Source: Candidatus Rokuibacteriota bacterium
GTDB lineage: Bacteria > Methylomirabilota > Methylomirabilia > Rokubacteriales > CSP1-6
Direction of reading: 5' to 3'
Length of the DNA stretch: 64,000 bases
Assembly: GCA_023248995.1 (NCBI GenBank)
Contig: JAHFDN010000001.1
Coordinates: 51,249 to 115,248 of the forward strand
Position 1 is the first letter of the stretch; the number at the start of each line of letters is the position of its first letter. Shown in pieces: positions 1,678-28,820 of the stretch. A program made the position numbers and the translations under genes. The notes under the pieces were generated by a model that worked only from the letters and a program-made list of their open reading frames with translations, ran no database searches and was not told the DNA's origin.

Positions 1678-1775
1678 GCACAGTATTTTTCCTTTGGGCG
1701 TGACTTATGATTGGACTTCGTGTATCCTCACCCGAAAGATTGTTCCGGTCCTTCACAAGCCATGAGGAGGTCTCG

Positions 1776-4700
1776 GTGACCGACGCGCCGCACGCCAAGC
1801 CGCTGACCCCGGACGGGCTCCCCCCCGCCCAGGGGCTCTACGACCCGGCCCACGAGCACGACGCCTGCGGCGTCGGGTTCGTCGTGGACATGAAGGGGCG
1901 TCAGTCGCACGGCATCGTCCTACGGGCCCTGACCGTCCTCAAGAACCTGCTCCACCGTGGGGCCTGCGGGTGCGAGGTCAACACGGGGGACGGGGCCGGG
2001 ATTCTCATCCAGATGCCGCACGCCTTTCTGGCCCGCGAGTGCCTGACGCTGGGGATCGTCCTGCCGGCCTCCAGGTGGTACGGCGCCGGGCTCGTCTTCC
2101 TGCCCACCGACCCCGGCCAGGCCAGGCGCTGCCAGCAGGTCTTCGAGGAGATCGTCCGGGAGGAAGGGCAGACGATGCTGGGCTGGCGGGACGTGCCGAC
2201 CGACGACTCGCCCGTCGGGCCGAGCGCCAGGGCCGTGGAACCCGTCATCAAACAGGTGTTCATCGCGCGCGATCCTGCGATTCGAGACGACCGGCAGTTC
2301 GAGCGTGTCCTCTACATCGTCCGCAAGCGGGTCGAGCACGCCATCTACGGGTCGGAGATGGCGGCGCGGAAGCTCTTCTACCTGCCGAGCCTCTCCTCCA
2401 ACACGCTCATCTACAAGGGGATGCTCTCGGCAGACCAGATCGAGACCATGTTCCCCGACCTGACGGATCCGGCGATCGAGTCGGCGCTCGCCCTGGTCCA
2501 CCAGCGCTTCTCCACCAACACCTTCCCCTCCTGGCCTCTGGCTCATCCCTACCGGTATCTGGCTCATAACGGAGAAATCAACACCCTGCGCGGAAACATC
2601 AATTGGATGCGCGCCCGGGAGGCCCTTTGCGAGTCGCCCCTCCTGCCCGACCTGAAGAAGATCCTCCCCATCGTGCTCGAAGGCGGGAGCGATTCGGCGA
2701 TCTTCGACAACGTGCTGGAGTTTTTGGTCATGACCGGGCGGCCCCTGCCGCACGCCGTGCTCATGATGATCCCGGAGGCGTGGAGCGGCCACGAGTTCAT
2801 GGACGAGGACCTGAAGGCCTTCTACGAGTACCACGGCTGCCTGATGGAGCCCTGGGACGGGCCCGCGTCCATCGCCTTCACCGACGGCACCGTCATCGGG
2901 GCGGTCCTGGACCGGAACGGGCTCCGTCCCTCGCGCTACTACGTCACGAAGGACGGACTGGTCGTCATGGCGTCGGAGGTGGGGGTGCTGGACATCCCGC
3001 CCGACAACGTCCTCATGAAGGAGCGGCTGCACCCCGGCCGGATCTTCCTGGTGGATACCTCCCAGGGCCGGATCATTGACGACGCCGAGCTGAAGCGGGC
3101 CTTCGCCACCGAGCATCCCTACCGGGAGTGGCTCGGGCGGCACCTGGTCCCGCTCCAGAATCTCCCCGCACCACCCCACGTCCACGAGCCGGATCACGAG
3201 ACGGTGCTCCAGCGGCAGCAGGCCTTCGGCTACACCCACGAGGACCTCCGCATCCTGATGGGGCCCATGGCGAAGAACGGGGAAGAGCCGGTGGGCTCCA
3301 TGGGGACCGACACCTCGCTGGCCGTCCTGTCGAACCGCCCGCGTCTGCTCTACGACTACTTCAAGCAGCTCTTCGCCCAGGTGACCAACCCGCCCCTGGA
3401 CGCGATCCGCGAGGAGCTGGTGACCCAGATGTCCACGACGATCGGGCCCGAGCGTAACTTATTGATGCCCGAGCCGGAGAGCTGCCGCCAGATCAAGCTC
3501 AGGACCCCGATCCTGGACAACGAGGAGTTGGCCCGGGTCCGGTACGTGGATCGGCCCGGGTTCAGATCCATGACGCTGCCGATGCTCTTCCCGGTCGGCA
3601 AAGGGGGCCCGGGGCTCGAGAGCGCCCTGGAGGAGCTCTGCCTCAAGGCGAGCCAGGCCATCGCCCTCGGGTATACCTTCATCATCCTCTCCGATCGGGG
3701 CGTGGATAAGGACCTGGCGCCGATCCCGGCGCTCCTGGCGACGGCCGGCGTCCACCACCACCTGGTCCGCGAGGGGACCCGAACGCGCGTGGGGCTCGTG
3801 ATCGAGAGCGGGGAGCCGCGCGAGGTGCATCACGCGGCGCTCCTCCTGGGCTACGGCGCGGGAGCCATCAATCCCTACCTGGCCTTCGAGAGCCTGGACG
3901 ACATGATCCGCCAGGAGCTCCTGCCCGGGCTCGACCACGTGAAGGCGGTGAAGAGCTACATCAAGGCCCTGAACAAGGGAGTGTTGAAGGTCATCTCCAA
4001 GATGGGGATCTCCACCATCCAGTCCTACCGGGGCGCCCAGATCTTCGAGGCCATGGGCCTCGACAAGGAGTTCGTGGACCGGTTCTTCACCTGGACCGCC
4101 TCCCGCATCGGCGGCGTCGGGCTCGACGTGATCGCCGAGGAAGCGCGCCTCCGCCACCGGCACGCCTTTCCGGAGCGGCCTGTGGGGAAGCCTGACCTCG
4201 ACTGGGGGGGCGAATACCAGTGGCGGCGCGACGGGGAATACCATCTCTTCAACCCCGACACGGTCTTCAAGCTCCAGCACGCCACCCAGAGCGGCCGGTA
4301 CAAGATCTTCAAGGAATACACCCAGCTGGTGGACAACCAGAACCAGCACCTCTGCACGCTCAGGGGGCTCTTCGACTTCAAGGTGGCCGAGACGCGCATC
4401 CCCATCGAGGAGATCGAGCCGGTCGAGTCCATCCTCAAGCGGTTCGCCACGGGCGCCATGTCCTACGGCTCGATCAGCCAGGAGGCCCACGAGACGCTGG
4501 CCATCGCGATGAACCGGATGGGCGCCCGGTCGAACACGGGCGAGGGGGGGGAGGACCCGGCGCGCTACAAGCCTGATCCTAACGGCGACCTGCGGCGGAG
4601 CGCGGTCAAGCAGGTCGCCTCCGGCCGATTCGGCGTCACCAGCGAGTACCTGGTCAACTCGACCGATCTGCAGATCAAGATGGCCCAGGGCAGTAAGCCC

Positions 4701-6365
4701 GGCGAAGGCGGCCAGCTCCCCGGCCACAAGGTCTATCCCTGGATCGCGAGGGTCCGCTACTCCACCCCCGGGGTGGGGCTGATCTCTCCGCCCCCCCACC
4801 ACGACATCTACTCGATCGAGGACATCAAGCAGCTCATCCACGATCTGAAGAACAGTAATCCCAAGGCCCGTGTTCACGTGAAATTGGTCGCTGAGGTGGG
4901 GGTCGGGACGGTGGCGGCGGGAGTGGCCAAGGCGTTTTCGGACGTCGTGCTGATCTCCGGCCACGACGGCGGCACCGGGGCCTCCCCGCTCAGCAGCATC
5001 AAGCACGCCGGTCTCCCCTGGGAACTGGGTCTCGCCGAGACCCAGCAGGTCCTCGTGCTGAACAAGCTCCGCGACCGGATCACCGTCCAGGTGGACGGGC
5101 AGATGAAGACCGGGCGCGACGTGGTCGTGGCGGCGCTCCTCGGCGCCGAGGAGTACGGCTTCTCCACGGCCCCGCTGGTCGTGATGGGCTGCGTCCTGAT
5201 GCGCGTCTGCCACCTGAACACGTGCCCGGTGGGGATCGCGACCCAGGATCCCGAGCTCAGGAAGAAGTTCACGGGGAAGCCCGAGTTCGTCCAGAATTTC
5301 TTCCGGTTCCTCGCCGCGGAGGTCCGGGAGTACATGGCCCAGCTCGGCTTCAGGACCATGGACGAGATGATCGGGCGGGTGGACAAGCTCGACATGAAGA
5401 AGGCGCTGGATCACTGGAAGGCGCGCGGGCTCGACTACTCCTCGATCCTCTACCAGCCGCAGGTCGGGCCCGACGTGGCGATCCGCAAGGTGCGCGAGCA
5501 GGATCACGGCCTGGACAAGGCGCTGGACAGGACCACGATCATCCCGCTCTGCCGGCCGGCCCTCGACCGGCGCGAGCCCGTGGATCTTCGCCTGCCGATC
5601 CGAAACGTCCACCGGACTGTCGGGACCCTCCTGGGCTACGAAGTCACCAGTCGTTACGGAAGCGAGGGGCTCCCCGACGACACGATCAGGATCCACTTCA
5701 CGGGCTCGGCGGGCCAGAGCTTCGGGGCGTTCATCCCGCGGGGGATCACGCTCGTCCTGGAGGGTGACTCCAACGACTACCTCGGCAAGGGCCTGTCGGG
5801 TGGCAAGATGATCGTGTACCCGCCGCGGGAGTCTACCTTCGTTCCCGAGGAGAACATCCTGGTCGGCAATGTCGTGCTCTACGGAGCCACCAGCGGCGAG
5901 GCGTACTTCCGAGGCGTCGCGGGTGAGCGGTTCGCCGTCAGGAACAGCGGGGCGCGCACTGTCGTGGAGGGCATCGGCGACCACGGCTGCGAGTACATGA
6001 CGGGAGGTCGCGTGGTCGTCATCGGCGGCACAGGACGCAACTTCGCGGCCGGCATGTCCGGCGGCGTCGCCTATGTTCTCGACGAGGTGGGCGACTTCAG
6101 GATCCGCTGCAACCTCGGCATGGTGGATGTCGAGCCCCTGGTTGCGGACGAAGATGTGCGCGAGGTGAGAGAGCTCCTCCGTCGCCACGCCCGCTACACC
6201 CAGAGCACGGTGGCAGAAGGAATCCTCGCCCGGTGGGGCAAGACGCAACCCAAGTTCGTGAAGGTCATGCCGCGCGATTACAAGCGGTCCCTCAATGCCA
6301 TGAAGCGGGCCCAGGAGGAAGGAATCCCCTGGGAGAAGGCGGTGATGGAAGGGGCGCATGGGTAA
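1776..6365 (+). CDS. gltB: Glutamate synthase large subunit
   Basis: EHDACGVGF amidotransferase start, [30 protein letters not shown], CxxxxxCxxxxC 3Fe-4S motif, GXGXG domain. GAGGAGG RBS before GTG 1776. Confidence 0.98.
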
Positions 6366-7803
6366 GCCCACCGGCTTCATGGAGTGGAAGCGCGACAAGC
6401 AGCCGTACCGCGCGGTGGCCGAGCGGGTCCGGGACTGGAAGCTGCAGATGCTTCCGTGGCCCGAGGACACGCTCCAGAAGCAGGGCGCGCGCTGCATGGA
6501 CTGCGGCATCCCCTTCTGCCACGAGGGCTGCCCGCTCGGCAACCTGATTCCCGACTGGAACGACCTGGTCTACCGCGACAAGTGGCGGGAAGCGATCGAC
6601 CGCCTCCACGCGACGAACAATTTCCCCGAATTCACCGGGACCCTCTGCCCGGCCCCGTGCGAGGGCTCCTGCGTCCTCGGCATCAACGACGACCCGGTGA
6701 CGATCAGGGCGATCGAGCTGGCGACCATCGACCACGCCTTCGAGGCCGGATGGGTGAAGCCCGAGCCCCCGGTCGTGCGGACCGGCAAGAAGGTCGCGGT
6801 TGTCGGCTCAGGGCCCGCCGGGCTGGCCGCTGCCCAGCAGCTCAATCGCGCAGGGCACTGGGTGACGGTCTTCGAGCGGGACGACAGGATCGGCGGCCTC
6901 CTGCGCTACGGGATCCCCGAGTTCAAGATGGAGAAGCGGGTCCTTGACCGGCGCCTCCAGCTGATGGAGAAGGAGGGGGTGGACTTCCAGGTCAACGCCC
7001 ACGTGGGAGTGACCGTGTCCGTCGAGGACCTGCGCCGGGAGTTCGACGCCATTCTCCTTGCCGGTGGCGCGACGCTCCCGCGAGACCTCAAGGTGCCTGG
7101 GCGCGAGCTCGGCGGCATCCACTTCGCCATGGAGTACCTGACCCTCCAGAACAGGCGCTGCGAGGGCGACCCGATCCCCGACGAGGGGTTCATCACCGCC
7201 GGCGGGAAGCGGGTCGTCATCATCGGGGGCGGCGACACGGGGGCCGACTGCCTGGGCACCGTCCATCGCCAGGGCGCCGCCTCGGTCCACCAGTTCGAGC
7301 TCCTTCCCCGCCCGCCCGACGAGCGTGCTCCCGACAACCCCTGGCCCCAATGGCCGGTCATCTTACGGACATCCGCGGCCCACGCGGAGGGAGGGATCCG
7401 TGAATACGCCGTCTCGACCACTCGCTTCTCGGGGGAGAACGGCCACGTGAAGAAGCTCCACGCTCACCGGGTCGAGATGGTGCGGGAGGGCGGGCGCCTC
7501 GACTTCAGGCCGATCCCCCACACCGAGTTCGAGCTGGAGGCCGAGTTGGTCCTTCTGGCCATGGGCTTTCTTGGCCCGGAGCGGGACGGCGCCTTGAGTC
7601 AGCTCGGCCTCAAGCTGACGGAGCGCGGCACCGTGTCGCGGGACGTGAACTGGATGACGAGCGTCCCCGGCGTGTTCGTCGCCGGGGACATGCAGCGCGG
7701 CCAATCCCTCATCGTCTGGGCCATCGCCGAGGGCCGGAGCGCCGCCCGGGGGGTGGATCTCTACCTCATGGGCCGCTCCGATCTCCCCGCCCCTCTTCCG
7801 TAG
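6358..7803 (+). CDS. gltD: Glutamate synthase small subunit
   Basis: MGKPTGF start, [47 protein letters not shown]. Overlaps the gltB stop. Confidence 0.98.
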
Positions 7804-7807
7804 CCCC

Positions 7808-8296
7808 ATGCCCCTCAGCCGGCAGGAGCGCGAGCGCCTCATCCAGCAGTACGCCGACGGCCCGTCCCGCCTGCGCGCGGCCTTCATGAGGATCGCCGAG
7901 GAGGCGCGGAAGTGGCGCCCGGCGCCGGGGGAGTGGTCGGCGCACGAGATCGTCTGCCACTGCGCCGATTCGGAAACGAACGCGGCGGCCCGGATCCGCT
8001 ACGTCGTCGCCGAGAAGGATCCCCTGGTCCTGGGCTACGACGAGAACGCCTGGGTCCAGCGCTTCGACTACCACTCGCACCCGATCGAGGCGGCTCTCGC
8101 GACCGTGGACGCCGTTCGCGCCAACACCTCGGCGCTCATCCGGCGGCTTCCGGGCGAGGCCTGGGCGCGCGAGGGGCAACACACCGAGTCAGGCCGCTAC
8201 ACGGCGGAGGACTGGCTCAGGATCTATGCGGCCCACCTGGAGGAGCACGCCCGCCAGATCGAGAATAATCTCGCCGCCTGGCGGGCCCGCCAATAG
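7808..8296 (+). CDS. DinB/YfiT-family putative metal-dependent thiol transferase
   Basis: WSAHEIVCHCADSE and HLEEHARQI His-triad pattern; PLVLGYDENAW. Confidence 0.85.
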   Translation: MPLSRQERERLIQQYADGPSRLRAAFMRIAEEARKWRPAPGEWSAHEIVCHCADSETNAAARIRYVVAEKDPLVLGYDENAWVQRFDYHSHPIEAALATVDAVRANTSALIRRLPGEAWAREGQHTESGRYTAEDWLRIYAAHLEEHARQIENNLAAWRARQ

Positions 8297-8397
8297 GTCA
8301 CTCCGAGTATTACCCCCCCTGTGCGCTCCTCTTCCGATGTGGTCCCGGAGGGGCCCGAGGGATCGATCCCGTCCTTCGGGGGTCAGGTTCTTCTGTC

Positions 8398-8459
8398 GCC
8401 TAACGATAAAGCTCACCGGCGTGCCGCTTTTGCGCGTCCGGTGAAGCGAACGGTTAGCC
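8398..8459 (-). mobile_element. Integron attC recombination site (62 bp)
   Basis: Minus strand: R'' GGCTAAC, 5-nt spacer, L'' GCTTCACC, GG(A)CGCGC-AAAA-GCGGCACGCC, L' GGTGAGC, 6-nt spacer, R' GTTAGGC. Extra-helical bases are present and the upstream gene's TAA lies inside R''. Confidence 0.88.
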
Positions 8460-9599
8460 AGCCCGGCGCAAGGATGTCGTTCCAATAGAACCATGCTCGG
8501 CGTCCCAAAGAAGGTCGGCTTCCGAGAAAGCCTGGCGAGCGTGACTGTATGCCACTACGCATACCGGCGGCCACTTCCACTGTTGATGCACCACACCCGC
8601 ACGCTCCGTCGAGAATCTGATCGTACCGCGCGTACCCTCCAACTCCATGCGGCGCAACGCATCGCGGACGTTCGGCGGTTCCGTAGTCCCAGCGTCCTCG
8701 AAAGCGCGCGCGAGCACGAGCACACTATCGAACCCTTCGAAGGCGACGAATGTCGGTTCTCGGCCGTACTGCTTCTTGAAGTGCATTGATATGCGCTTTC
8801 CGTTGCCCGTGGGGCGGTCCGGTCGCGTGTACGAGAGGAAAGGGACCTGTATGGCACCGGTACCAGCAATCTCCCACCAGTCCGGAAACACCGTGCGTCC
8901 CGCAGGATCTCCGAAAAAGCATGCAGGCGGGACAAGGCCATGGTTGTGCGCCTCGCCCACGACCGAACGCAGTGGTTCCGGGTAGGCCATGAGAAGGAGC
9001 AAGATGTCCGGGACCGCAGACTCCGATTGCTTCGCCTTGACTTGCCGGATCCAGGACGCTGCATCGGCCAGTCCTGGAGCAACTGAAAGCCGCGTAAAAT
9101 GTACGCCTAAGTTTTGGAGCCGACCCTCTATTGCTCTTGAGCCGTTGTTCCAATAACGATTATCTTCTTGAAGCGCGACGACATGCTGAAAACCCTGTGA
9201 CGCTAAAAAGTCGGCGTAGATAGCCCAACCGTAGGATTGAGGTGGTGCAAGACGAAACACGAAACCCAACCTGCGGGCTGTGATGTCATCCAGCGTCGCG
9301 GACGCGCATACGAAGGGGAGGCCGGAACGCTCCACTGGCTCTACGATGGCATCAGCAACCACGCTGTGGAACTCGCCGGCCAAGGCGTGGACGCTTTCTC
9401 CAAGCAGCCTCTCGACAGCGGCCACACCTGCCTCCGGTCGGCCATGTGTGTCCTCAAATAAGAGAGTCAACTGCCTGCCCAGCACGCCACCCGAGCCATT
9501 AAGTTGCTGCACGGCGAGACTCATCCCGTCCTTGAGTTCGCGTCCTGCCCAAGGAATGCCCGGCAACGTCAGCGGGCCAAGACCGCCGATACGTATCAC
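8454..9599 (-). CDS. Branched-chain-amino-acid-type ABC substrate-binding protein (type I PBP fold) carried as a gene cassette
   Basis: IRIGGLGPLT..G....G...AVQQLNGSGGVLGRQLTLLFEDT, FVFRLAP, LEGTRGTIRF. Visibly lower GC, no signal peptide, no permease genes. Confidence 0.85.
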   Translation of the reverse strand: MIRIGGLGPLTLPGIPWAGRELKDGMSLAVQQLNGSGGVLGRQLTLLFEDTHGRPEAGVAAVERLLGESVHALAGEFHSVVADAIVEPVERSGLPFVCASATLDDITARRLGFVFRLAPPQSYGWAIYADFLASQGFQHVVALQEDNRYWNNGSRAIEGRLQNLGVHFTRLSVAPGLADAASWIRQVKAKQSESAVPDILLLLMAYPEPLRSVVGEAHNHGLVPPACFFGDPAGRTVFPDWWEIAGTGAIQVPFLSYTRPDRPTGNGKRISMHFKKQYGREPTFVAFEGFDSVLVLARAFEDAGTTEPPNVRDALRRMELEGTRGTIRFSTERAGVVHQQWKWPPVCVVAYSHARQAFSEADLLWDAEHGSIGTTSLRRAG

Positions 9600-9830
9600 C
9601 TTCTCCCCCTTTACGTCGTTACCTCACACACCTCATTGTGGAGCTGGCTAACTAGAATTAGGTAGAAGCGTATATCACGGCAAACCTTGCAGTTGGCCGC
9701 AACCTATCGCGGAGACGCATCGCCAGGGTCTACCGCGTATCTCCAGGTTCTTCCGGGGAGTTGCCCTCCGGAGACCCAGGCGCTGCCATGTTATGCAGCA
9801 TCGCGTTGCGGCCTATCCCGGCGTGCCTTC

Positions 9831-9887
9831 CGTGGCATCGACCTCTACCTCATGGGCAAGTCCGACCTCCCCGCTCCCCTCCTCTAA
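9831..9887 (+). repeat. Displaced copy A of the gltD 3' end (RGIDLYLMGKSDLPAPLL*)
   Basis: Aligns with gltD 7747-7803; 41 bp identical to copy B. Confidence 0.9.
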
Positions 9888-9910
9888 GGGGGCACGAGGC
9901 GCCCCTAACG

Positions 9911-10123
9911 CTATAGAAGGTCGCGAAACTTTTCGACGGTTAGGCCGGCGTCGCGCACGATGCCGCCCAGCGTGTAAGCGTTAACGGGATTGTGACGGGG
10001 AATGGTAAGAATGCGGACGCCGTCGGTCATAACGACGTGCTTACCTTCACGGACAATGCGAAACCCGGCCTTCTCCAGCGCGCGCACGGCATCTCGGTGG
10101 TTGACGCCGGGGATCTTGGGCAC
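9911..10123 (-). CDS. hicA: HicA-family mRNA interferase toxin
   Basis: VRALEKAGFRIVREGKHVVM...TIPRH...TLGGIVRDAGLTVEKF. Confidence 0.9.
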   Translation of the reverse strand: MPKIPGVNHRDAVRALEKAGFRIVREGKHVVMTDGVRILTIPRHNPVNAYTLGGIVRDAGLTVEKFRDLL

Positions 10124-10125
10124 GC

Positions 10126-10323
10126 CTATGAGGTGACTTCGACTTCGCGGACGACCGCCCCTTTCAGGAGTCCTTCACGCGCGGCGAGGTACTCGCGAAT
10201 CGCGTCTTTGATGTTCGCCAGCGCCTCCTGTTCGGTGGCACCCTGCGACCAGCACCCCGGCAGCCCCGGAACCGAAACACTATAGCCTTCGTCCCTCTTC
10301 AGCAACGCAATCTTGTATTTCAT
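10126..10323 (-). CDS. hicB: HicB-family antitoxin (short, no DNA-binding domain)
   Basis: GYSVSVPGLPGCWSQGATEQEALANIKDAIREYL. Confidence 0.9.
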   Translation of the reverse strand: MKYKIALLKRDEGYSVSVPGLPGCWSQGATEQEALANIKDAIREYLAAREGLLKGAVVREVEVTS

Positions 10324-10329
10324 GGCTCA

Positions 10330-10358
10330 AGTATATACCGGAGAGATGCTACCGTCTA
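10330..10358 (-). promoter_or_regulatory. Sigma70-type promoter of hicBA (leaderless)
   Basis: TAGACG-17 nt-TATACT-6 nt-ATG. Confidence 0.65.
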
Positions 10359-10392
10359 ACAGGAATCGCCATGTCCCATTTCCGATACACCG

Positions 10393-10465
10393 GCCGAGGG
10401 GGAGCGCCGCCCGCGGCATCGACCTCTACCTCATGGGCAAGTCCGACCTCCCCGCCCCGCTTTGA
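10393..10465 (+). repeat. Displaced copy B of the gltD 3' end (...SAARGIDLYLMGKSDLPAPL*)
   Basis: Aligns with gltD ~7726-7803 with a 2-bp deletion near its 5' end; 41 bp identical to copy A. Confidence 0.9.
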
Positions 10466-11124
10466 CGCGGAGGGGGCCTCGACGCCCCCATCCGTACCTC
10501 CCCTGGAAAATTGATAATCACACTCCGCATTGCCAAGTAGACGACAACTCCGTTCAGGACGTGCCAGAGGAAGTGGGTGCCGATTAGCAAATAAGGGCAT
10601 ACAACTTTATCAACTGTGCGAAAAACGAGCGAGAGTGAAAATACCCCCGTTGTCGCGAGCAGCAGGAAATGACCTCTCTTTCGTTGCTGGAAATGGTACA
10701 GTCCCAGGCTGAGTAGCAAAAGGAATGAAGGAGAATAGATGAGTGAGCCGTTGAGGATGTTCGGGAATTGCCTCCCGAGATAGGCTGCAGCAGCGAAGCC
10801 GACTGTGCAAGCGGATGCAAGCTCGATGCGTATTCCCACAACTGTGCGCGTGTACAGCCACAGAAACCAGAGCTGAAACAGCAGAATGGGGAGCGCGTCT
10901 AGGACCCTCGCCCATCCCGTCGCGAACGTGTGGAATGCGATGCTCCCAACGCCGATGGTGACAAACAAGGCGATTAGCCCCGAGCTCCCCGCCGACAGAG
11001 CATTCGCACGTCGGGCCAGAGACCAGGCCGCCCAAGCAGCGATCAGAAAGGACAGATTGGTGGACGCATTGACTGGTTCCGCAAATAAACCGGGACCCAA
11101 GCGTTCACAGTAGAGATCGATCAC
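10426..11124 (-). CDS. Ceramidase/CREST-superfamily membrane protein
   Basis: YCER...AEPVNASTN, GSIAFH, D.LPI, GTHFLWHVLNG. Low GC. The C-terminus reads into the antisense strand of gltD copy B. Confidence 0.85.
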   Translation of the reverse strand: MIDLYCERLGPGLFAEPVNASTNLSFLIAAWAAWSLARRANALSAGSSGLIALFVTIGVGSIAFHTFATGWARVLDALPILLFQLWFLWLYTRTVVGIRIELASACTVGFAAAAYLGRQFPNILNGSLIYSPSFLLLLSLGLYHFQQRKRGHFLLLATTGVFSLSLVFRTVDKVVCPYLLIGTHFLWHVLNGVVVYLAMRSVIINFPGEVRMGASRPPPRQSGAGRSDLPMR

Positions 11125-11160
11125 GCGTTACCGCGCTGGTGGAGCGGCCTAAAGATCGCG

Positions 11161-11238
11161 CCTCAACGCTCCTCCGACACTAGGCTGACGCCACGGCGTG
11201 CCTTCCGTGGCAGCTCGCCTGGCGCTCAGGCGTTGAAG
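11161..11238. repeat. Imperfect palindrome (degenerate attC/REP-like hairpin)
   Basis: TCAACGC...AGGC..GCCACGG-CGTGCCTT-CCGTGGC..GCCT...GCGTTGA. 19 bp of it (11194-11212) recur at 9819-9837. Confidence 0.55.
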
Positions 11239-11279
11239 ATCCGATCAGCCGGCCTCCGCACCCAGCCGGCCCCCGTCGG

Positions 11280-12302
11280 TTAGCCGCCGCGGGTGTGCAT
11301 CTCGAGGTGGGGGTCCTGACGCAGCTCGCCGATCTGGACCAGGGGGCTCCGGCTGCCGAGGGCCAGGCGCTCCTCGGCGCCCCGGTCGGCCCGCTTGTGC
11401 CAGATGGGGGCGATGAGGGCCTTGAGCTCTGCCTTCGAGGCGCCACGCCGCAGGGGCCCCCGGAGGTCGGTCCCGTCCTTCGCGTAGAGGCAGAGGTACC
11501 ACATGCCATCGGCGGTGAGGCGGCTCCGGTCGCAGGAGCGGCAGAAGGGCGCCGTCGTCGAGGAGATGATCCCGAAGACGGTCCCGTCGGGTAACCTGAA
11601 GCGGTCCGCCGGCGCCGAGCTTTCCTCGATCACGGGTTGGATACGGCCGTAGTGACCCTCCAGTCGCTCCAGGATCGCCGTGCGGGGGAAGACCTTGTCC
11701 ATGGACCAGAGCGTGGCGCCGCCGACGTCCATGTACTCGATGAAGCGCACCTCGGCGCTCACTTTCTTGCCGTACTCGATGAGGTCCACCAGCTCGTCGT
11801 CGTTGGTCCCCCGCATGACCACCGAGTCGAGCTTGAGCCCCTTGAAGCCTGCCCGCCCCACCGCCTCGATTCCACGGAGCGCCCTCGCCAGATCGTCGCG
11901 GCGCGTCAGGCGCCTGAAGCGCTCGGGCTGGAGCGTGTCGAGGCTGACGCTCACCCGATGGAGTCCCGCCTCGTAGAGCGCCTGGGCCTGCTCGGCCAGG
12001 AGCACGCCGTTGGTCGTCATGGCGAGGTCCCGGATGGCCGGCTTGGCGGCGAGCATCCGGACGAGCGCTGGCAGATCCCTGCGCAGGAGCGGCTCCCCGC
12101 CTGTCAGCCGCACTTTGTCCACGCCGAGCTCGGTGAAGACGTCCGCGAGGGAGCTGATCTCCTCGAAGTGAAGGAGATGCTCGCGGGGGAGCCAGACGTA
12201 CTCGTCCTCCGGCATGCAGTACTGGCAGCGCAAATTGCAGCGGTCGGTGACCGAGATGCGGAGGTTTCGAAGCGGGCGGCCCAGGGTGTCGAGGTGGGGC
12301 AT
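11280..12302 (-). CDS. moaA: GTP 3',8-cyclase
   Basis: LRISVTDRCNLRCQYCMP, RLTGGEP, FCRSCDRSRLTADG...CL, C-terminal GG. Confidence 0.97.
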   Translation of the reverse strand: MPHLDTLGRPLRNLRISVTDRCNLRCQYCMPEDEYVWLPREHLLHFEEISSLADVFTELGVDKVRLTGGEPLLRRDLPALVRMLAAKPAIRDLAMTTNGVLLAEQAQALYEAGLHRVSVSLDTLQPERFRRLTRRDDLARALRGIEAVGRAGFKGLKLDSVVMRGTNDDELVDLIEYGKKVSAEVRFIEYMDVGGATLWSMDKVFPRTAILERLEGHYGRIQPVIEESSAPADRFRLPDGTVFGIISSTTAPFCRSCDRSRLTADGMWYLCLYAKDGTDLRGPLRRGASKAELKALIAPIWHKRADRGAEERLALGSRSPLVQIGELRQDPHLEMHTRGG

Positions 12303-13330: not shown

Positions 13331-15049
13331 CTATACGGCCAGGGTCTCGGGGGCGAGGCCGGCCTTCTGGTACTCTCGGATCAGGCCGGACTTTTTCACG
13401 CCGACGTCGAGGTGATCCCACGGAAAGACTTCGTCCAGCGGCCGCTCGCGGCTCGTGTAGAAGGCAGGGTCGCCCTCCCATTGTCTGAGCGCCCGTCGCC
13501 AGTCTCCGCCCAGGCGCGCCGCGATCTCCAGAAAATCCGCCACGCGGCGGTCCCCGCGCGCCAGGAGCGCCTGGAGGGAGGCCTCCCGCGGGTTTTCGTG
13601 GAGCACCCGCACGTTGGGGAAGCGCCGGACGCCGCGCTTGATGACCCCGAGCTTGTCCTCGAGGCTCCGCGGATCGTCGAAGGGCGCCCACTGAAAGGGC
13701 GTCCAGGGCTTGGGGACGAAGGAGGAGATCGACAGCGTGAGCTTGCCGAACGGGTGGCCGTCCGGATCGAGCACGCGCAGCCTGTCCAGGAGGCGTCCAG
13801 CAAGATCCGGGATTGCCTCTATATCCTCGCGGGTCTCGGTGGGGAGCCCGATCATGAAGTAGCACTTGAGGTTCGGGATCCCATGCCGCCGGAGGAGGCC
13901 GCAGGCCTCGTAGAGCTGTTCGTCGCTGATGGTCTTCCGGATCACGTGCCTGAGCCGCTCGGTGCCGGCCTCCGGCGCCATCGTGAGCGTCCGATGGCCG
14001 CCGCGCTTGAGCGAGGCGACCAGGTCCTCAGTCAGGCTGTCCGCTCGCAGCGACGAGATGGACACCTCGACGCCGTGCTCCTCGAGGATCTTCATCAACT
14101 CCCCGATCCACGGGTAGTCGGAGACGCACGCCCCCACCAGCCCCACGCGGCGTCCGTCCTTGGCGATCTTGGCCACCGTCTCCCTCAGCGACTCCAGGCT
14201 CCGGTGACGGACCGGCCGGTAAATCTCGCCCTCCAGACAGAAGCGGCACCCTCTGCCGCACCCTTTACCCACCTCCAAGAGCGACATATGCCCGTACTCC
14301 GCCCGCGGCGTCTTCAGGAGAGAGATTGTCTCGAACTGGTTCACGTCCTTCAGGCGGCGCTTGAGCACCACGGGCGGCACGTTCGCGTGCCGGGGAACGA
14401 CGGCGGCCACGCTCCCGTCATCGGTGTGGCGGACCTCGTAGGCATGGGGAAGATAGATGCCCTGGATCGAGGCGAGCCGGTCCAGGAAGGCGTCCCGCTT
14501 GCGGCCGGCCGGGTCGAGGCCCTCGAAGGCCTCGCGATAGGAGGACACGATCTCGCTAACAATCTCCTCCCCTTCCCCCACCACCACGAAGTCCATGAAG
14601 GGGGCGATGGGCTCGGGGTTGGCGAAGGCGCACACGCCCCCCATGAGGATCAGCGGGTCCTGGGGCCGGCGCGCTTCCGGGCGTAGCGGGATGCCTGCCA
14701 TGGCGAGCAGCCGCAGCACGTTGATGTAATCGCCCTCGTAGGTCACCGAGAACCCGACGAGGTGGAAGTCGGAGAGGGGGCGCTGGGACTCGAGCGAGAA
14801 CGGCGGGGTGCGCGTCCTCAGATATTCATCCAGGTCCTCGGGGTCGGGGAAGAAGACCCGCTCGCAGACGACGTCGGGGAGGCGGTTCAGGCAGGCGTAG
14901 ATAGCCTGGAACCCCAGGTTGGACATCCCGACCGCGTACGTGTTCGGGTACACGAGGGCGACGGAGATCTTGCCTCCCCAGTCTTTCGCGATCCCTCCCT
15001 GTTCGAGAGCCAGGAGGGCCTGCGCCTTTTTCTTGAGGTCCCAGGACAT
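13331..15049 (-). CDS. B12-binding-domain radical SAM protein (uncharacterised)
   Basis: YPNTYAVGMSNLGF, VVVGEGE, GCGRGCRFC, APEAGTERLR, YFMIGLPTE, FVPKPWTPFQW. Confidence 0.9.
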   Translation of the reverse strand: MSWDLKKKAQALLALEQGGIAKDWGGKISVALVYPNTYAVGMSNLGFQAIYACLNRLPDVVCERVFFPDPEDLDEYLRTRTPPFSLESQRPLSDFHLVGFSVTYEGDYINVLRLLAMAGIPLRPEARRPQDPLILMGGVCAFANPEPIAPFMDFVVVGEGEEIVSEIVSSYREAFEGLDPAGRKRDAFLDRLASIQGIYLPHAYEVRHTDDGSVAAVVPRHANVPPVVLKRRLKDVNQFETISLLKTPRAEYGHMSLLEVGKGCGRGCRFCLEGEIYRPVRHRSLESLRETVAKIAKDGRRVGLVGACVSDYPWIGELMKILEEHGVEVSISSLRADSLTEDLVASLKRGGHRTLTMAPEAGTERLRHVIRKTISDEQLYEACGLLRRHGIPNLKCYFMIGLPTETREDIEAIPDLAGRLLDRLRVLDPDGHPFGKLTLSISSFVPKPWTPFQWAPFDDPRSLEDKLGVIKRGVRRFPNVRVLHENPREASLQALLARGDRRVADFLEIAARLGGDWRRALRQWEGDPAFYTSRERPLDEVFPWDHLDVGVKKSGLIREYQKAGLAPETLAV

Positions 15050-27364: not shown

Positions 27365-27948
27365 AGCTCTTCGACCGTGACCCGGTCGTTGGTGTACACG
27401 CAGATGGCGGCGGCGATCCGCATGGCCTCCTCGACGATCTGCTTGGCGTCGAGATCGGAGTGGGCGATCAGCGCCCGGGCGGCGGCCAGCGCGAACGGGC
27501 CCCCGGAGCCGATGCCGACGACGCCGTCGTCCGGCTCGATGATCTCGCCGCTTCCGGACAGGATGAAGGAGTGCTCCTTGTCCGCCACGGCCAGGAGCGC
27601 CTCCAGACGCCGGAGGATCCGATCGGTGCGCCAGTCCTTGGCGAGCTCCACGGCGGCGCGGGAGAGATTGCCCCGATACTCGTCCAGCTTCGCCTCGAAT
27701 TTCTCGAAGAGCGTGAAAGCGTCGGCGGCGGTTCCCGCGAAGCCGGCGAGGACCCGGTCGTGGTAGAGCTTCCGCACCTTGCGCGCCCCGGCCTTGACGA
27801 TGGTCGGCCCGATGGAGACCTGCCCGTCTCCGGCGAGCGCCACGCGGCCCTGGTGGCGCACGCAGATCACCGTCGTCCCCCTGATCCGCAGAAGGTCCCC
27901 GGCGCGTTCGCTTCCTCCCCGGGCAGGCGCGACGTTTCGACGGGTCAT
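27361..27948 (-). CDS. hslV: HslUV protease peptidase subunit
   Basis: [33 protein letters not shown]. Confidence 0.97.
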
Positions 27949-28820
27949 GGATGCGCCCTCGGATGAGCGGCGTCGTAGACCTTCATCAGATGGTCAGCGC
28001 TGACGTGCGTGTAGCGCTGGGTCGTGGACAGCCGGCTGTGGCCGAGAAGGTCCTGGATCAGGCGGAGGTCCGCGCCGGCGTCGAGCATGTGGGTGGCGAA
28101 TGTGTGCCGCAGCGTGTGGGGACTCACCCGTCGCGTGAGGCCGGCGGCGCGGGCCCGGGCCTTCACGATCCTGTGCACGCTTCTCTCCGTGAGCCGGTGG
28201 CCCCGGAGATTTCGAAAAAGCGGGCCGTCTCCCTCCCCGCGGGCGGCGAGGTAGGCGGCCAGCGCGGCCAGAGCCGCCTCGCCCACGGGGATGATGCGCT
28301 CCTTGCCGCCTTTCCCGCGCACCCGAACGGTACCCTGGAAGGGATCGAGATCCGCCAGGTCCAGGCCGCAGAGCTCGGCCACCCGAGCTCCAGTGGCGTA
28401 GAGCAGCTCGAGGATAGCCCGATCGCGTCTGTCAGCCAGCGACCGGCCTGGCGCCCGGTCGAGCAGCGCTGTGGCCTCGTCCACGGGGAGGAAGGAGGCG
28501 AGCTTCTTCGGCAATCGCGGCGTCGTCACGTCGCGCGCCGGGTTCCGCCCGAGCCGGCCTCGGCGGGCCAGGAAGCCCAGACAGCTCCGGATAGCGGCCA
28601 GCTTGCGTGCGATGGACGGGCGCGCCAGCCCCAGGTCGTAGAGCTCGGCCAGGTATTGCCGGAGCAAACGGGCGTCCACGTGCTCGATCCGCCGGACGCG
28701 GTGCCCCGACAGGAAGCGCCAGAACTGGTCCAGGTCCGTCCGGTAGCCGCGAAGGGTGTGGGGCGAGGCGCCCCGCTCCACCGCCTGATAACGGAGGAAG
28801 TGCTCGATCGGATCCGTCAT
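27945..28820 (-). CDS. xerC: Tyrosine recombinase XerC
   Basis: [54 protein letters not shown]. Canonical topA-xerC-hslVU context. Confidence 0.93.

What the first reader, a model, noticed from the sequence alone, without database searches (positions are those of the whole stretch)
7726..10465. Serial capture of DNA at the 3' end of gltD: two displaced gltD tails mark an integration hotspot
Seen: the last ~19-25 codons of gltD recur at 9831-9887 and 10393-10465, each with a stop codon. The two copies share 41 identical bp (GGCATCGACCTCTACCTCATGGGCAAGTCCGACCTCCCCGC) but differ from the live gene at synonymous or conservative sites (GID..MGK vs GVD..MGR). Different cargo follows each tail: DinB plus the SBP cassette, hicBA, and ceramidase. 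Known: elements integrating into the 3' end of a coding gene (e.g. e14/phage 21 in icd) supply a replacement tail and push the old one downstream. Inference: at least two nested integrations, newest next to gltD, with no integrase left in the units. The cause could be an in-trans recombinase or homology-facilitated capture during natural transformation (dprA is present).
Basis: partly seen in the sequence, partly recalled or inferred. Interest (0 to 1): 0.72.

Follow-up and report, generated by a model that had tools for sequence, protein, structure and literature searches.

The report
Displaced gltD gene ends mark insertions
Behind the glutamate synthase gene gltD of an uncultured groundwater Rokubacterium lie two full spare copies and one partial copy of the gene's last codons, separated by foreign genes, which are scars of repeated DNA insertion at a gene end with no integrase in sight.

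Summary
gltD (6358-7803) has two displaced ends with stop codons, at 9819-9887 and 10393-10465. They share 41 identical bases found nowhere else in the genome. I add a third, 19-base partial copy at 11194-11212.

- SBP, hicAB and the ceramidase-like gene are compositionally foreign (GC3 0.64-0.73 against 0.92 for neighbours). They are rare or not found in 182 other genomes of the order.
- DinB is not recent cargo. It has native composition, follows gltD in three other genera, and survives as a remnant in a fourth.
- Only this genome, of 183, has more than one intact tail.
- The clearest mobile unit is a 480-base hicAB cassette, 92% identical to that of relative G007 where flanks are 82-83% identical. 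There it sits between duplicated DinB ends. In G012 it carries gltD-tail pieces in an unrelated context.
- The same layout (gene end, cargo, gene end again) recurs at thiI, with an empty site in a relative, and at two other genes of this genome.
- The genome encodes only XerC and XerD.

I favour homology-guided duplicative insertion over a trans-acting integrase, narrowly. This scan has noted similar layouts on other DNA.

The parts
6358..7803 (+). gltD (glutamate synthase small subunit), intact. The live tail is roughly 7726-7803.
   Evidence: Pfam Fer4_20 + Pyr_redox_2. 86-88% aa identity to G007 and G137. GC3 0.92.
7808..8296 (+). DinB_2 family gene, 4 nt after the gltD stop. A conserved neighbour, not recent cargo.
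   Evidence: Pfam PF12867. GC3 0.93. Same position in G007, G004 and G010. Tail remnant in G137.
8300..11190 (.). Block of foreign composition that holds all the displaced tails and the cargo.
   Evidence: GC falls from about 0.70 to 0.52-0.63 and returns to 0.72 at 11150. Cargo GC3 is 0.64-0.73 against a native median of 0.86.
8454..9599 (-). Orphan periplasmic-binding-protein gene (Peripla_BP_6). It has no signal peptide and in-frame stops just upstream, so it is probably a 5'-truncated remnant (inference).
   Evidence: Pfam match starts at residue 2. Upstream translation. No homologue at E<=1e-60 in the other 182 genomes of the order.
9819..9887 (+). Displaced gltD tail 1 with stop codon. 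Its first 19 nt (9819-9837) are repeated exactly at 11194-11212. The 41-nt core is 9834-9874.
   Evidence: 88.9% over 63 nt to the G137 live tail.
9888..9905 (+). GC-rich hairpin directly after the tail 1 stop codon.
   Evidence: Sequence read. Homologous stretch in the G012 left flank (0 of 1000 shuffles).
9913..10392 (-). hicAB toxin-antitoxin cassette: hicA 9911-10123, hicB 10126-10323, plus 69 nt upstream of hicB. The best-defined mobile unit.
   Evidence: Pfam HicA_toxin and HicB_lk_antitox. 91.7% nt identity to G007 against 81.8-83.0% for flanks. 91.9% to metagenome contig L079. Found in 19 of 183 genomes of the order.
10393..10465 (+). Displaced gltD tail 2 (24 codons and a stop).
10466..10503 (+). 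First hairpin of a REP-like intergenic repeat family, directly after the tail 2 stop. Tail 2 plus this hairpin looks like a former native gene end.
   Evidence: blastn to 5 other copies. 4 of those 5 lie within a few bases of a stop codon.
10426..11124 (-). Ceramidase-family membrane protein gene. Homology to relatives ends at about residue 205. The last ~27 codons are the antisense of the hairpin and tail 2, so its own 3' end is lost.
   Evidence: Pfam PF05875. tblastn alignments end at residues 200-205. Found in 5 of 183 genomes, at most 54% identity.
11194..11212 (+). Third, partial gltD tail: an exact copy of the first 19 nt of tail 1, followed by unrelated sequence, about 70 nt from the moaA stop.
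   Evidence: family D10. Only these two places genome-wide.
11280..12302 (-). moaA, the conserved right-hand boundary of the variable spacer.
   Evidence: Pfam Radical_SAM + Mob_synth_C. Syntenic in 8 of 20 relatives' stretches and in G137.

Best explanation
The gltD-moaA spacer of this Rokubacterium is a gene-turnover site. Foreign DNA entered at least twice, probably three times, by a duplicative insertion that uses the conserved end of a gene (last 15-50 codons, stop codon and terminator hairpin) as the recombination target. The most likely route is a single crossover (Campbell-type) between the resident gene end and a circular piece of DNA carrying a copy of that end. The crossover would be made by the cell's own homologous recombination rather than by a dedicated integrase. 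One crossover leaves the gene intact with a complete end, places the cargo behind it, and leaves a second copy of the end downstream. Repeating this stacks tails.

Shown: the tails, the foreign composition of the cargo, the lack of any integrase in the spacer or the assembly beyond XerC/XerD, the mobility of the hicAB cassette, and the same layout at three other genes of this genome with one empty site in a relative.

Inferred: the circular intermediate, the enzyme, and the number and order of events.
For: (1) Tails with stops and hairpins lie in direct orientation, with foreign cargo between them.
(2) The same hicAB cassette (92% identical, flanks 82-83%) sits between duplicated gltD ends here (41 nt exact). 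In G007 and in contig L079 it sits between duplicated DinB ends (82 nt, 88%). The duplicated sequence therefore follows the target gene, not the cassette.
(3) In G012 the cassette lies between an AMP-binding enzyme gene and an amidase gene. It carries the 3' part of a gltD tail on its left and the 5' part on its right (0 of 1000 shuffles each). G160 shares the right flank. This permuted order is what opening a circle inside the tail would give.
(4) Other loci of this genome show the same layout. At thiI, a perfect 44-nt repeat of its last 11 codons and stop flanks a TAXI-TRAP transporter pair, and G012 shows the empty site. At a malate-synthase-like gene, the last 159 nt are repeated 6.2 kb downstream at 92%. 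At a glyoxalase gene, the last 46 nt and stop are repeated 5.1 kb downstream at 89%. Six more distant relatives keep those two genes within about 1 kb of each other. None of these cargoes holds an integrase.
(5) The duplicated sequences of the four genes share no evident motif (my reading, no formal test).
(6) The assembly holds only XerD and an XerC-like gene and no Resolvase-family match.
(7) Single crossover of a circular molecule is documented to duplicate the homologous segment (109-950 bp) around the insert (PMC3240628, passages read).
Against: (1) The homologies are short (41-159 nt) and diverged (82-94%), except for the perfect 41-, 44- and 19-nt blocks. That is poor substrate for RecA-type crossover.
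(2) It is unclear how a foreign fragment first acquires a copy of the target gene's end.
(3) Perfect repeats of 41-45 nt are also what integrase att cores look like. The same genome has a classic 45-nt tRNA-Met 3'-end duplication around a 2.7-kb island without an integrase, so integrase-type scars whose integrase is missing do exist here.
(4) Metagenome-assembled genomes often miss mobile elements, so 'no integrase found' is weak.
(5) No ComEC or Ku family match was found, so the route of DNA entry is unknown.
(6) Tail 1 and tail 2 each resemble whole natural alleles (G137-like and G007-like) rather than clear reciprocal hybrids, but the stretches are too short to decide.
(7) A test for a recombination breakpoint inside gltD was not significant (231 of 2000 permutations).
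(8) The junctions are not read-verified.
Confidence: 0.45

Rival explanations
1. Site-specific integration by a tyrosine or serine integrase acting in trans or since lost. The units would be decayed, integrase-less islands stacked by accretion at the 3' end of a housekeeping gene, as with CIMEs at fda, rpsI and rpmG in streptococci, or e14 in icd. Each arrival would supply a replacement tail.
For: The layout has the same form as e14/icd with its icdC fragment (PMC13626634, passages read) and as CIME accretion arrays, which keep att sites but have lost recombination genes and measure 1.2-13 kb, or 130-220 bp for microCIMEs (PMC7563491, passages read). There are perfect identity blocks of 41 nt (tail 1 and tail 2), 19 nt, and 44 nt at thiI. 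A 45-nt tRNA-Met end duplication without an integrase is in the same genome. The permuted tail pieces around hicAB in G012 also fit excision and reintegration through a site inside the tail.
Against: No integrase lies in the spacer. The assembly has only XerD and an XerC-like gene and no serine recombinase. Among the 150 best tyrosine-recombinase matches listed for 41 relatives (119 further matches not listed), the one nearest to gltD lies 14-60 kb away and looks like the syntenic XerC. Four different protein genes would need several integrases with different att sites. The same cassette is flanked by gltD ends in one genus and DinB ends in another. The tail pattern and the cassette were not found in viral contigs, plasmids or phages. 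Only 1 of 183 genomes has extra tails, unlike a widely used att site.
Confidence: 0.3
2. One-ended homologous recombination of linear foreign DNA (a variant of homology-facilitated illegitimate recombination). The left end pairs inside gltD, and the non-homologous right end joins illegitimately a few dozen bases upstream of the resident stop codon, so the resident tail survives downstream.
For: This needs no integrase and no circle. The live 3' end of gltD looks somewhat closer to G007 and G004 than the rest of the gene does (G007-like versus G137-like sites are 32:16 right of alignment position ~1180, against 68:87 to the left). The cargo behind thiI begins with a C-terminal fragment of some other gene, as a random donor fragment would.
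Against: The breakpoint test is not significant (231 of 2000 permutations reach the observed value). Described HFIR events usually delete recipient DNA rather than duplicate it (PMC3240628, passages read). The model does not explain the permuted tail pieces around hicAB in G012. No ComEC match was found.
Confidence: 0.1
3. A local segmental duplication of the gltD end and DinB region, followed by deletions and unrelated insertions. The tails would be leftovers of a decayed second copy, not of separate arrivals.
For: G137 shows that DinB can be deleted in place, leaving only its tail. In G007 and L079 a second DinB tail lies downstream of the intact DinB. The sequence after the 19-nt partial tail resembles the G137 sequence after its DinB remnant at borderline level (26 of 500 shuffles).
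Against: The displaced tails differ from the live tail at 8 of 41 core positions yet are identical to each other (my reading). The cargo is compositionally foreign. The thiI case has an empty site and no second gene copy. The supposed decayed gltD tail in G007 is not above chance (108 of 500 and 143 of 500).
Confidence: 0.08
4. Assembly artefact: a chimeric join of strain variants at the conserved gltD tail in a metagenome-assembled genome.
For: The genome is a 57-contig metagenome assembly. One other tail duplication in it, on contig C10, abuts a run of N and looks like a scaffolding artefact.
Against: The left flanks of both displaced tails are unique non-gltD sequence, and the shared block is only 41 nt, shorter than a read. 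The hicAB-to-tail junctions recur in the independent assembly of G012, and the analogous DinB arrangement recurs in G007 and in a separate metagenome contig. Two runs of one study hold 0.90 and 0.88 of the sampled words of 7600-11400, though one may be the source sample and this does not test junctions.
Confidence: 0.05

Closest known systems
e14 (and phage 21) integrated in the 3' end of icd in E. coli K-12, leaving the icdC C-terminal pseudogene
   Same: An insertion inside the end of a housekeeping gene. The gene stays intact with a replacement end that differs at a few conservative sites, and the old end is left as a fragment beyond the insert (PMC13626634, passages read).
   Different: e14 is a prophage with its own site-specific recombination system. 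Here the units hold no integrase or phage genes, several tails are stacked, and the same thing happens at other genes of the genome.
CIMEs and accretion arrays at the 3' ends of fda, rpsI and rpmG in Streptococcus salivarius/thermophilus
   Same: Tandem units at the end of a conserved gene, separated by repeated att sites. The units have lost all recombination and transfer genes and measure 1.2-13 kb or 130-220 bp (PMC7563491, passages read).
   Different: CIMEs derive from ICEs or IMEs, and cognate integrases sit in the same species, often in the same array. No ICE, IME or integrase was found here or next to gltD in the relatives examined.
Campbell-type single-crossover integration of a circular molecule carrying a fragment of the target
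   Same: It gives target fragment, insert, then target fragment again in direct orientation (PMC3240628: duplications of 109-950 bp of lacZ; passages read).
   Different: That was a laboratory plasmid with engineered homology. Here the homologies are shorter (19-159 nt), partly diverged, and of natural origin. The circle is inferred, not seen.
Homology-facilitated illegitimate recombination (HFIR)
   Same: Foreign DNA is captured next to a conserved anchor without an integrase (PMC3240628 introduction).
   Different: HFIR generally deletes recipient DNA of similar size, with 3-10 bp microhomology at the joint. Here the recipient end is duplicated.
hicAB type II toxin-antitoxin modules
   Same: HicA_toxin and HicB-like antitoxin domains, adjacent genes 2 nt apart, patchy distribution (19 of 183 genomes).
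   Different: What is unusual is not the module but its flanks: duplicated ends of whichever gene lies upstream, and pieces of a former flank carried to a new context.

Membership tests
Integrase-borne island in a protein gene's 3' end (e14/icd type) | The target gene's 3' end is duplicated in direct orientation on both sides of the insert | tested here: met
Integrase-borne island in a protein gene's 3' end (e14/icd type) | The live gene is kept intact by a replacement end with synonymous or conservative differences | tested here: met
   GVD..MGR (live) versus GID..MGK (displaced). gltD is full length, 86-88% identical to relatives.
Integrase-borne island in a protein gene's 3' end (e14/icd type) | An integrase gene lies inside the element next to one att site | tested here: not met
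   The Pfam scan of the ORFs examined in 7808-11124 shows none. The genome has only XerD and an XerC-like gene and no Resolvase match.
Integrase-borne island in a protein gene's 3' end (e14/icd type) | Excision to a circle and an attP form outside the chromosome | not testable with these tools
No match in viral contigs, plasmids or phages.
CIME / accretion array | Tandem units at one gene end, separated by repeated att-like sites and lacking recombination genes | tested here: met
   Three tail copies separate SBP, hicAB and the ceramidase-like gene.
CIME / accretion array | A cognate integrase-bearing ICE or IME at the same site in the same or related genomes | tested here: not met
   Extra tails occur in 1 of 183 genomes. 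Among the 150 listed tyrosine-recombinase matches in 41 relatives, none lies within 10 kb of gltD; 119 further matches were not listed.
HFIR | One homologous anchor, with the donor tract running into the gene body | tested here: inconclusive
   The maximum chi-square breakpoint is near position 1180 of gltD, but 231 of 2000 permutations reach it.
HFIR | Recipient DNA is deleted at the illegitimate joint | tested here: not met
   The resident end is duplicated, not deleted. The expectation comes from PMC3240628.
HFIR | A DNA uptake system (natural competence) | tested here: inconclusive
   DprA is present. No ComEC family match in a 97%-complete assembly.
Campbell-type homologous single crossover of a circle | Direct duplication of the shared segment around the insert, with the repeat sequence set by the target gene | tested here: met
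   gltD ends flank hicAB here and DinB ends flank it in G007 and L079. thiI, malate-synthase-like and glyoxalase ends flank other cargo.
Campbell-type homologous single crossover of a circle | A circular intermediate carrying one copy of the tail | tested here: inconclusive
   Permuted tail pieces around hicAB in G012 and G160 fit it, but about 28 nt of the tail's middle is missing from both flanks, and no circle was observed.
hicAB type II toxin-antitoxin | HicA toxin domain and HicB antitoxin domain in adjacent genes | tested here: met
   PF07927 (1.4e-11) and PF15919 (1.1e-8). The genes are 2 nt apart.

The most novel reading that the evidence does not exclude
Streamlined Rokubacteria gain genes through an integrase-free, homology-hitchhiking route. 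Small cassettes such as hicAB would travel with a copy of a conserved gene end plus its terminator hairpin. They would loop out as circles by recombination between the flanking copies and re-enter at any matching, or merely similar, gene end. Each entry would duplicate that end. Displaced gene ends would then be a general, readable record of gene gain in genomes that lack conventional mobile-element machinery.
Probability: 0.2. Interest if true: 0.7.

Novelty: new variant of a known kind. Interest (0 to 1): 0.5.

Why it matters
Displaced gene ends are normally read as integrase scars. This 97%-complete genome encodes only XerC and XerD, yet it shows the scar at four protein genes, one with a clean empty site in a relative. 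One toxin-antitoxin cassette sits between duplicated ends of different genes in different genera. If the process is homology-guided and needs no integrase, it would help explain how insertion hotspots between core genes fill up without mobile-element genes. It would also give a sequence signature (tail number, tail divergence) for ordering gene gains in uncultured lineages. If a trans-acting integrase is responsible instead, this is the CIME and accretion principle extended to a candidate phylum and to new target genes. That would be useful but not surprising.

Tried and rejected

(2) Donor assignment from tail alleles. Against 55 distinct tails of relatives, tail 1 is nearest G137 (56 of 68), the live tail is nearest G007, G004 and G030 (59 of 68), and tail 2 ties among four genomes (56 of 68). 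No core matches exactly (best 34 of 35). The stretches are too short to name donors.

(3) Recombination breakpoint inside gltD. There is a hint at about position 1180, not significant (231 of 2000 permutations).

(4) A 'decayed gltD tail' right of hicAB in G007. I first read one there, but it is not above chance (108 of 500 and 143 of 500 shuffles), so I dropped it. With it goes a one-step history for G007.

(5) A DinB-tail remnant after the 19-nt partial tail. Not significant against DinB tails (107 of 500). Borderline against G137's post-remnant sequence (26 of 500).

(6) Exact 41-mer in metagenome contigs: 0 matches. The hicAB promoter 27-mer gave 1 contig, with the same arrangement as G007. 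The degenerate tail core in species-representative genomes found only G137's contig.

(7) An attP-like copy on mobile DNA. The tail pattern and the hicAB 27-mer gave 0 matches in viral contigs. Window 9819-10503 gave no match in plasmids or phages.

(8) The genome-wide repeat scan (86 direct-repeat pairs of 35-400 nt within 15 kb). Most pairs are paralogues, REP-like repeats or tandem repeats inside genes. Only the thiI, malate-synthase-like, glyoxalase and tRNA-Met cases were followed up. The C10 case abuts a run of N and is probably a scaffolding artefact. Pairs on C12, C39, C57 and others were not examined.

(9) Earlier notes for this genome near the window: none.

Full report
WHAT IS THERE

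The window lies on contig C22 of a 57-contig, 2.34-Mb, 97%-complete metagenome-assembled genome. Its closest named relative is a Candidatus Rokuibacteriota groundwater genome.

- gltB (1707-6365) and gltD (6358-7803) are followed 4 nt later by a DinB_2 family gene (7808-8296).
- On the minus strand follow a periplasmic-binding-protein gene (8454-9599), hicA (9911-10123), hicB (10126-10323) and a ceramidase-family gene (10426-11124).
- Then come moaA (11280-12302) and a Rieske gene.
- GC drops from about 0.70 to 0.52-0.63 between 8300 and 11150.
- Third-position GC is 0.92-0.93 for gltD, DinB and moaA. It is 0.64, 0.72, 0.73 and 0.65 for the binding protein, hicA, hicB and the ceramidase-like gene. 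The genome median is 0.86.

- The end of gltD recurs at 9819-9887 and 10393-10465, in frame and with stop codons.
- The 41 identical bases occur only at these two places in the genome. The matches to the live tail are far beyond chance (E 1.5e-14 and 6e-6 genome-wide).
- Tail 1 begins at 9819, not 9831. Including its first 19 nt, it matches the live tail of relative G137 at 88.9% over 63 nt.
- Those 19 nt recur exactly at 11194-11212, about 70 nt from the moaA stop, followed by unrelated sequence. This is a third, partial tail.
- Each full displaced tail is followed at once by a GC-rich hairpin. The one after tail 2 belongs to a REP-like repeat family. In 4 of the 5 other copies retrieved, the repeat starts within a few bases of a stop codon. 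Tail 2 plus its hairpin therefore looks like a former native gene end.

WHAT RELATIVES SHOW

gltD was found in 35 of 41 relatives. I fetched 20 downstream stretches.

- moaA lies within the stretch in 8 of the 20, at 1.5 to 12.2 kb from gltD. DinB directly follows gltD in 3 of them: G007, G004 and G010.
- In G137 (gltD 88% identical) the spacer is about 0.8 kb. It holds only a remnant of the DinB tail right after gltD (0 of 500 shuffles reach its score) and a chlorite-dismutase-like gene.
- DinB is therefore an old neighbour of gltD in this family, retained here and deleted in G137. It is not the cargo of a recent insertion.
- A motif search for the tail peptide found one copy in 18 of the 20 stretches, none in 2, and no extra copy anywhere.
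- Across the order, 111 of 183 genomes carry the 35-nt tail core within 3 mismatches. Every one except this genome carries it once.
- The ceramidase-like gene is in 5 of 183 genomes, at no more than 54% identity. This binding protein is in 1 of 183.
- Both cargo genes look damaged. The binding protein starts at the mature domain, with stops just upstream and no signal peptide. Homology of the ceramidase-like ORF ends near residue 205, and its last ~27 codons are the antisense of the hairpin and tail 2.

THE hicAB CASSETTE IS THE CLEAREST MOBILE PIECE

- Window 9913-10392 runs from the hicA stop to 69 nt upstream of hicB. It is 91.7% identical to G007, where the flanking genes are 81.8-83.0% identical. 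It is 91.9% identical to an independent metagenome contig with G007's arrangement.
- The cassette occurs in 19 of 183 genomes of the order.
- Here it is flanked by gltD tails (41 nt exact). In G007 it directly follows the intact DinB and is followed, 92 nt on, by a second DinB tail (82 nt, 88%). One cassette thus sits between duplicated ends of two different genes in two genera.
- In G012 the cassette (alignment 83.9% over 559 nt, flanks included) lies between an AMP-binding enzyme gene and an amidase gene.
- Even so, its left flank carries the 3' part of a gltD tail plus hairpin, and its right flank carries the 5' part of the tail (0 of 1000 shuffles each). G160 shares that right flank.
- The cassette therefore took pieces of a gltD tail to a new context, in the permuted order expected if a circle with one tail were opened inside the tail. 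About 28 nt of the tail's middle are missing from both flanks, so this is suggestive, not clean.
- G012 and G160 have no gltD assembled. G012's moaA contig has the G137-type neighbour.

THE LAYOUT IS NOT PECULIAR TO gltD

I scanned the genome for direct repeats of 35-400 nt within 15 kb (86 pairs), using composition-based gene calls. Four further cases emerged.

(a) thiI. Its last 11 codons, stop and 7 nt are repeated perfectly (44 nt) 3.3 kb downstream, around a TAXI-type binding protein and a fused DctM permease. In G012, thiI runs straight into the gene that here follows the displaced copy. G015 and G005 also lack the transporter pair between thiI and the downstream rpiB and glyA genes. This is an empty site. 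The cargo begins with a C-terminal fragment of some other gene.

(b) A malate-synthase-like gene on contig C35. Its last 159 nt recur 6.2 kb downstream at 92%. A nested 110-nt repeat (93%) of its stop and terminator region surrounds TerC and Na/H-exchanger genes.

(c) A glyoxalase gene convergent with it. Its last 46 nt and stop recur 5.1 kb downstream at 89%, around DUF748, MscS, a T2SSE ATPase and an ABC binding protein. The two displaced ends lie about 580 nt apart. In six more distant relatives the two gene families sit within about 1 kb of each other.

(d) A tRNA-Met whose 3' 45 nt recur perfectly 2.7 kb downstream, around ORFs with no Pfam match.

No cargo holds an integrase. The assembly has XerD, an XerC-like gene, one fragment, and no Resolvase-family match.

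MECHANISM

All the cases share one form: an intact gene end, then cargo, then the same end again in direct orientation. A single crossover between the resident end and a circular molecule carrying a copy of that end gives exactly this form. The duplication of the shared segment is documented for laboratory constructs (PMC3240628, passages read). The open question is the enzyme.

Points that favour the cell's own homologous recombination:
- The repeat follows the target gene, not the cassette.
- Four unrelated protein genes are targets, with no evident common motif (my reading, no formal test).
- The repeats vary in length (19-159 nt) and are often diverged.
- Cargo edges look like random fragments.
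- No integrase was found in the genome, next to gltD in relatives (only the 150 best matches were listed, 119 were not), or on viral, plasmid or phage DNA carrying these sequences.

Points that favour an integrase acting in trans:
- The repeats include perfect 41-45-nt blocks.
- The tRNA-Met case is a textbook att scar, yet it lacks an integrase.
- Metagenome bins tend to lose mobile elements.
- CIME accretion arrays at the ends of fda, rpsI and rpmG are a close formal match (PMC7563491, passages read), as is e14 in icd (PMC13626634, passages read).

I put homology-guided duplicative insertion at 0.45 and the integrase reading at 0.30. The remainder goes to a linear one-ended variant (0.10), local duplication and decay (0.08), and assembly artefact (0.05). 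How DNA enters the cell is unknown: DprA is present, but no ComEC or Ku match was found.

HISTORY OF THIS LOCUS (INFERRED)

- The simplest reading is an ancestor like G137, with gltD close to moaA.
- Then came an insertion that placed hicAB between two tail-plus-hairpin copies (tails 1 and 2).
- The ceramidase-like fragment was joined to the far side of tail 2's hairpin.
- An event bounded by the perfect 19-nt repeat (9819-9837 and 11194-11212) brackets everything from tail 1 to the ceramidase-like gene.
- The binding-protein fragment lies between DinB and tail 1.
- I could not order these events, and I could not name donors.

NOVELTY AND STANDING

- Displaced gene ends beside integrated elements are known. 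The variant here is that an almost complete, streamlined genome shows them at several protein genes with no integrase at all. In addition, one toxin-antitoxin cassette is seen between duplicated ends of different genes and carrying pieces of a former flank.
- Earlier notes of this scan describe similar integrase-less layouts in other phyla. I did not test those.
- The tallies include unpublished genomes (G009, G023). No specific claim rests on them.
- The main weakness is that the junctions could not be checked against reads.

Noticed in passing
L139 (G000:C22:186000-196000) 3515-3558 and 6898-6941: The last 11 codons and stop of thiI are repeated perfectly (44 nt) around a TAXI-type binding protein and a fused DctM permease. 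G012 shows the empty site. The cargo starts with a C-terminal fragment of an unrelated gene.
   Followed up: yes
L077 (G000:C35:42000-59000), about 2879-3045, 9072-9230, 9808-9853 and 14936-14981: Two convergent genes (malate-synthase-like and glyoxalase) each have a displaced copy of their end, 6.2 and 5.1 kb downstream. Ordinary transport and signalling genes lie between, with no integrase. A nested 110-nt repeat of the stop and terminator region also occurs.
   Followed up: partly
L146 (G000:C8:1-6000) 137-181 and 2868-2944: The 3' 45 nt of tRNA-Met are repeated perfectly 2.7 kb downstream, around ORFs with no Pfam match and no integrase. This is a classic att-type scar without its enzyme.
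   Followed up: partly
window 10466-10503; G000 C22:121513, C21:28707, C21:79219, C45:10225, C44:18571; C17:2209-2532: A REP-like two-hairpin repeat family sits mostly right after stop codons. The genome has a single Y1_Tnp (HUH transposase) family match, possibly a REP-associated transposase.
   Followed up: partly
L075 (G137:C178:15000-32000), about 2812-2860: G137 has lost DinB but keeps about 45 nt of its tail, 37 nt after the gltD stop (0 of 500 shuffles reach the score).
   Followed up: yes
L033 (G007:C12) 2414-2495 and 3079-3160; L079: In G007 and in an independent metagenome contig, hicAB is flanked by an 82-nt direct repeat (88%) of the DinB gene end. The two assemblies diverge right after the displaced DinB stop codon.
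   Followed up: yes
window 8454-9599 and 10426-10520: The binding-protein gene has no signal peptide and has stops just upstream. The ceramidase-like ORF has lost its own end and reads through the antisense of a hairpin and gltD tail 2. Both may be remnants.
   Followed up: partly
G000:C10:74623-74661 and 74879-74917: A 39-nt gene-end duplication lies next to a run of N. It is probably an unmerged scaffold overlap, not biology.
   Followed up: no
window 27945-29246 (-): The XerC-like recombinase ORF is 433 aa, with about 145 residues ahead of the Xer-type region. A tyrosine recombinase sits 14-60 kb from gltD on the same contig in many relatives, so it appears to be syntenic.
   Followed up: partly
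G012:C8:2-751, G012:C56 end, G007:C88 end: In the closest relatives, contigs tend to end at or just beyond the ends of the same genes that carry displaced tails here. gltD is not assembled at all in G012 and G160. This fits repeats or strain variation at these sites.
   Followed up: no
G000 C12:611-921/1918-2227, C39:168225-173719, C57:63740-67757: Further direct-repeat pairs of 65-370 nt at 80-98% identity near gene ends or contig ends. Not examined.
   Followed up: no
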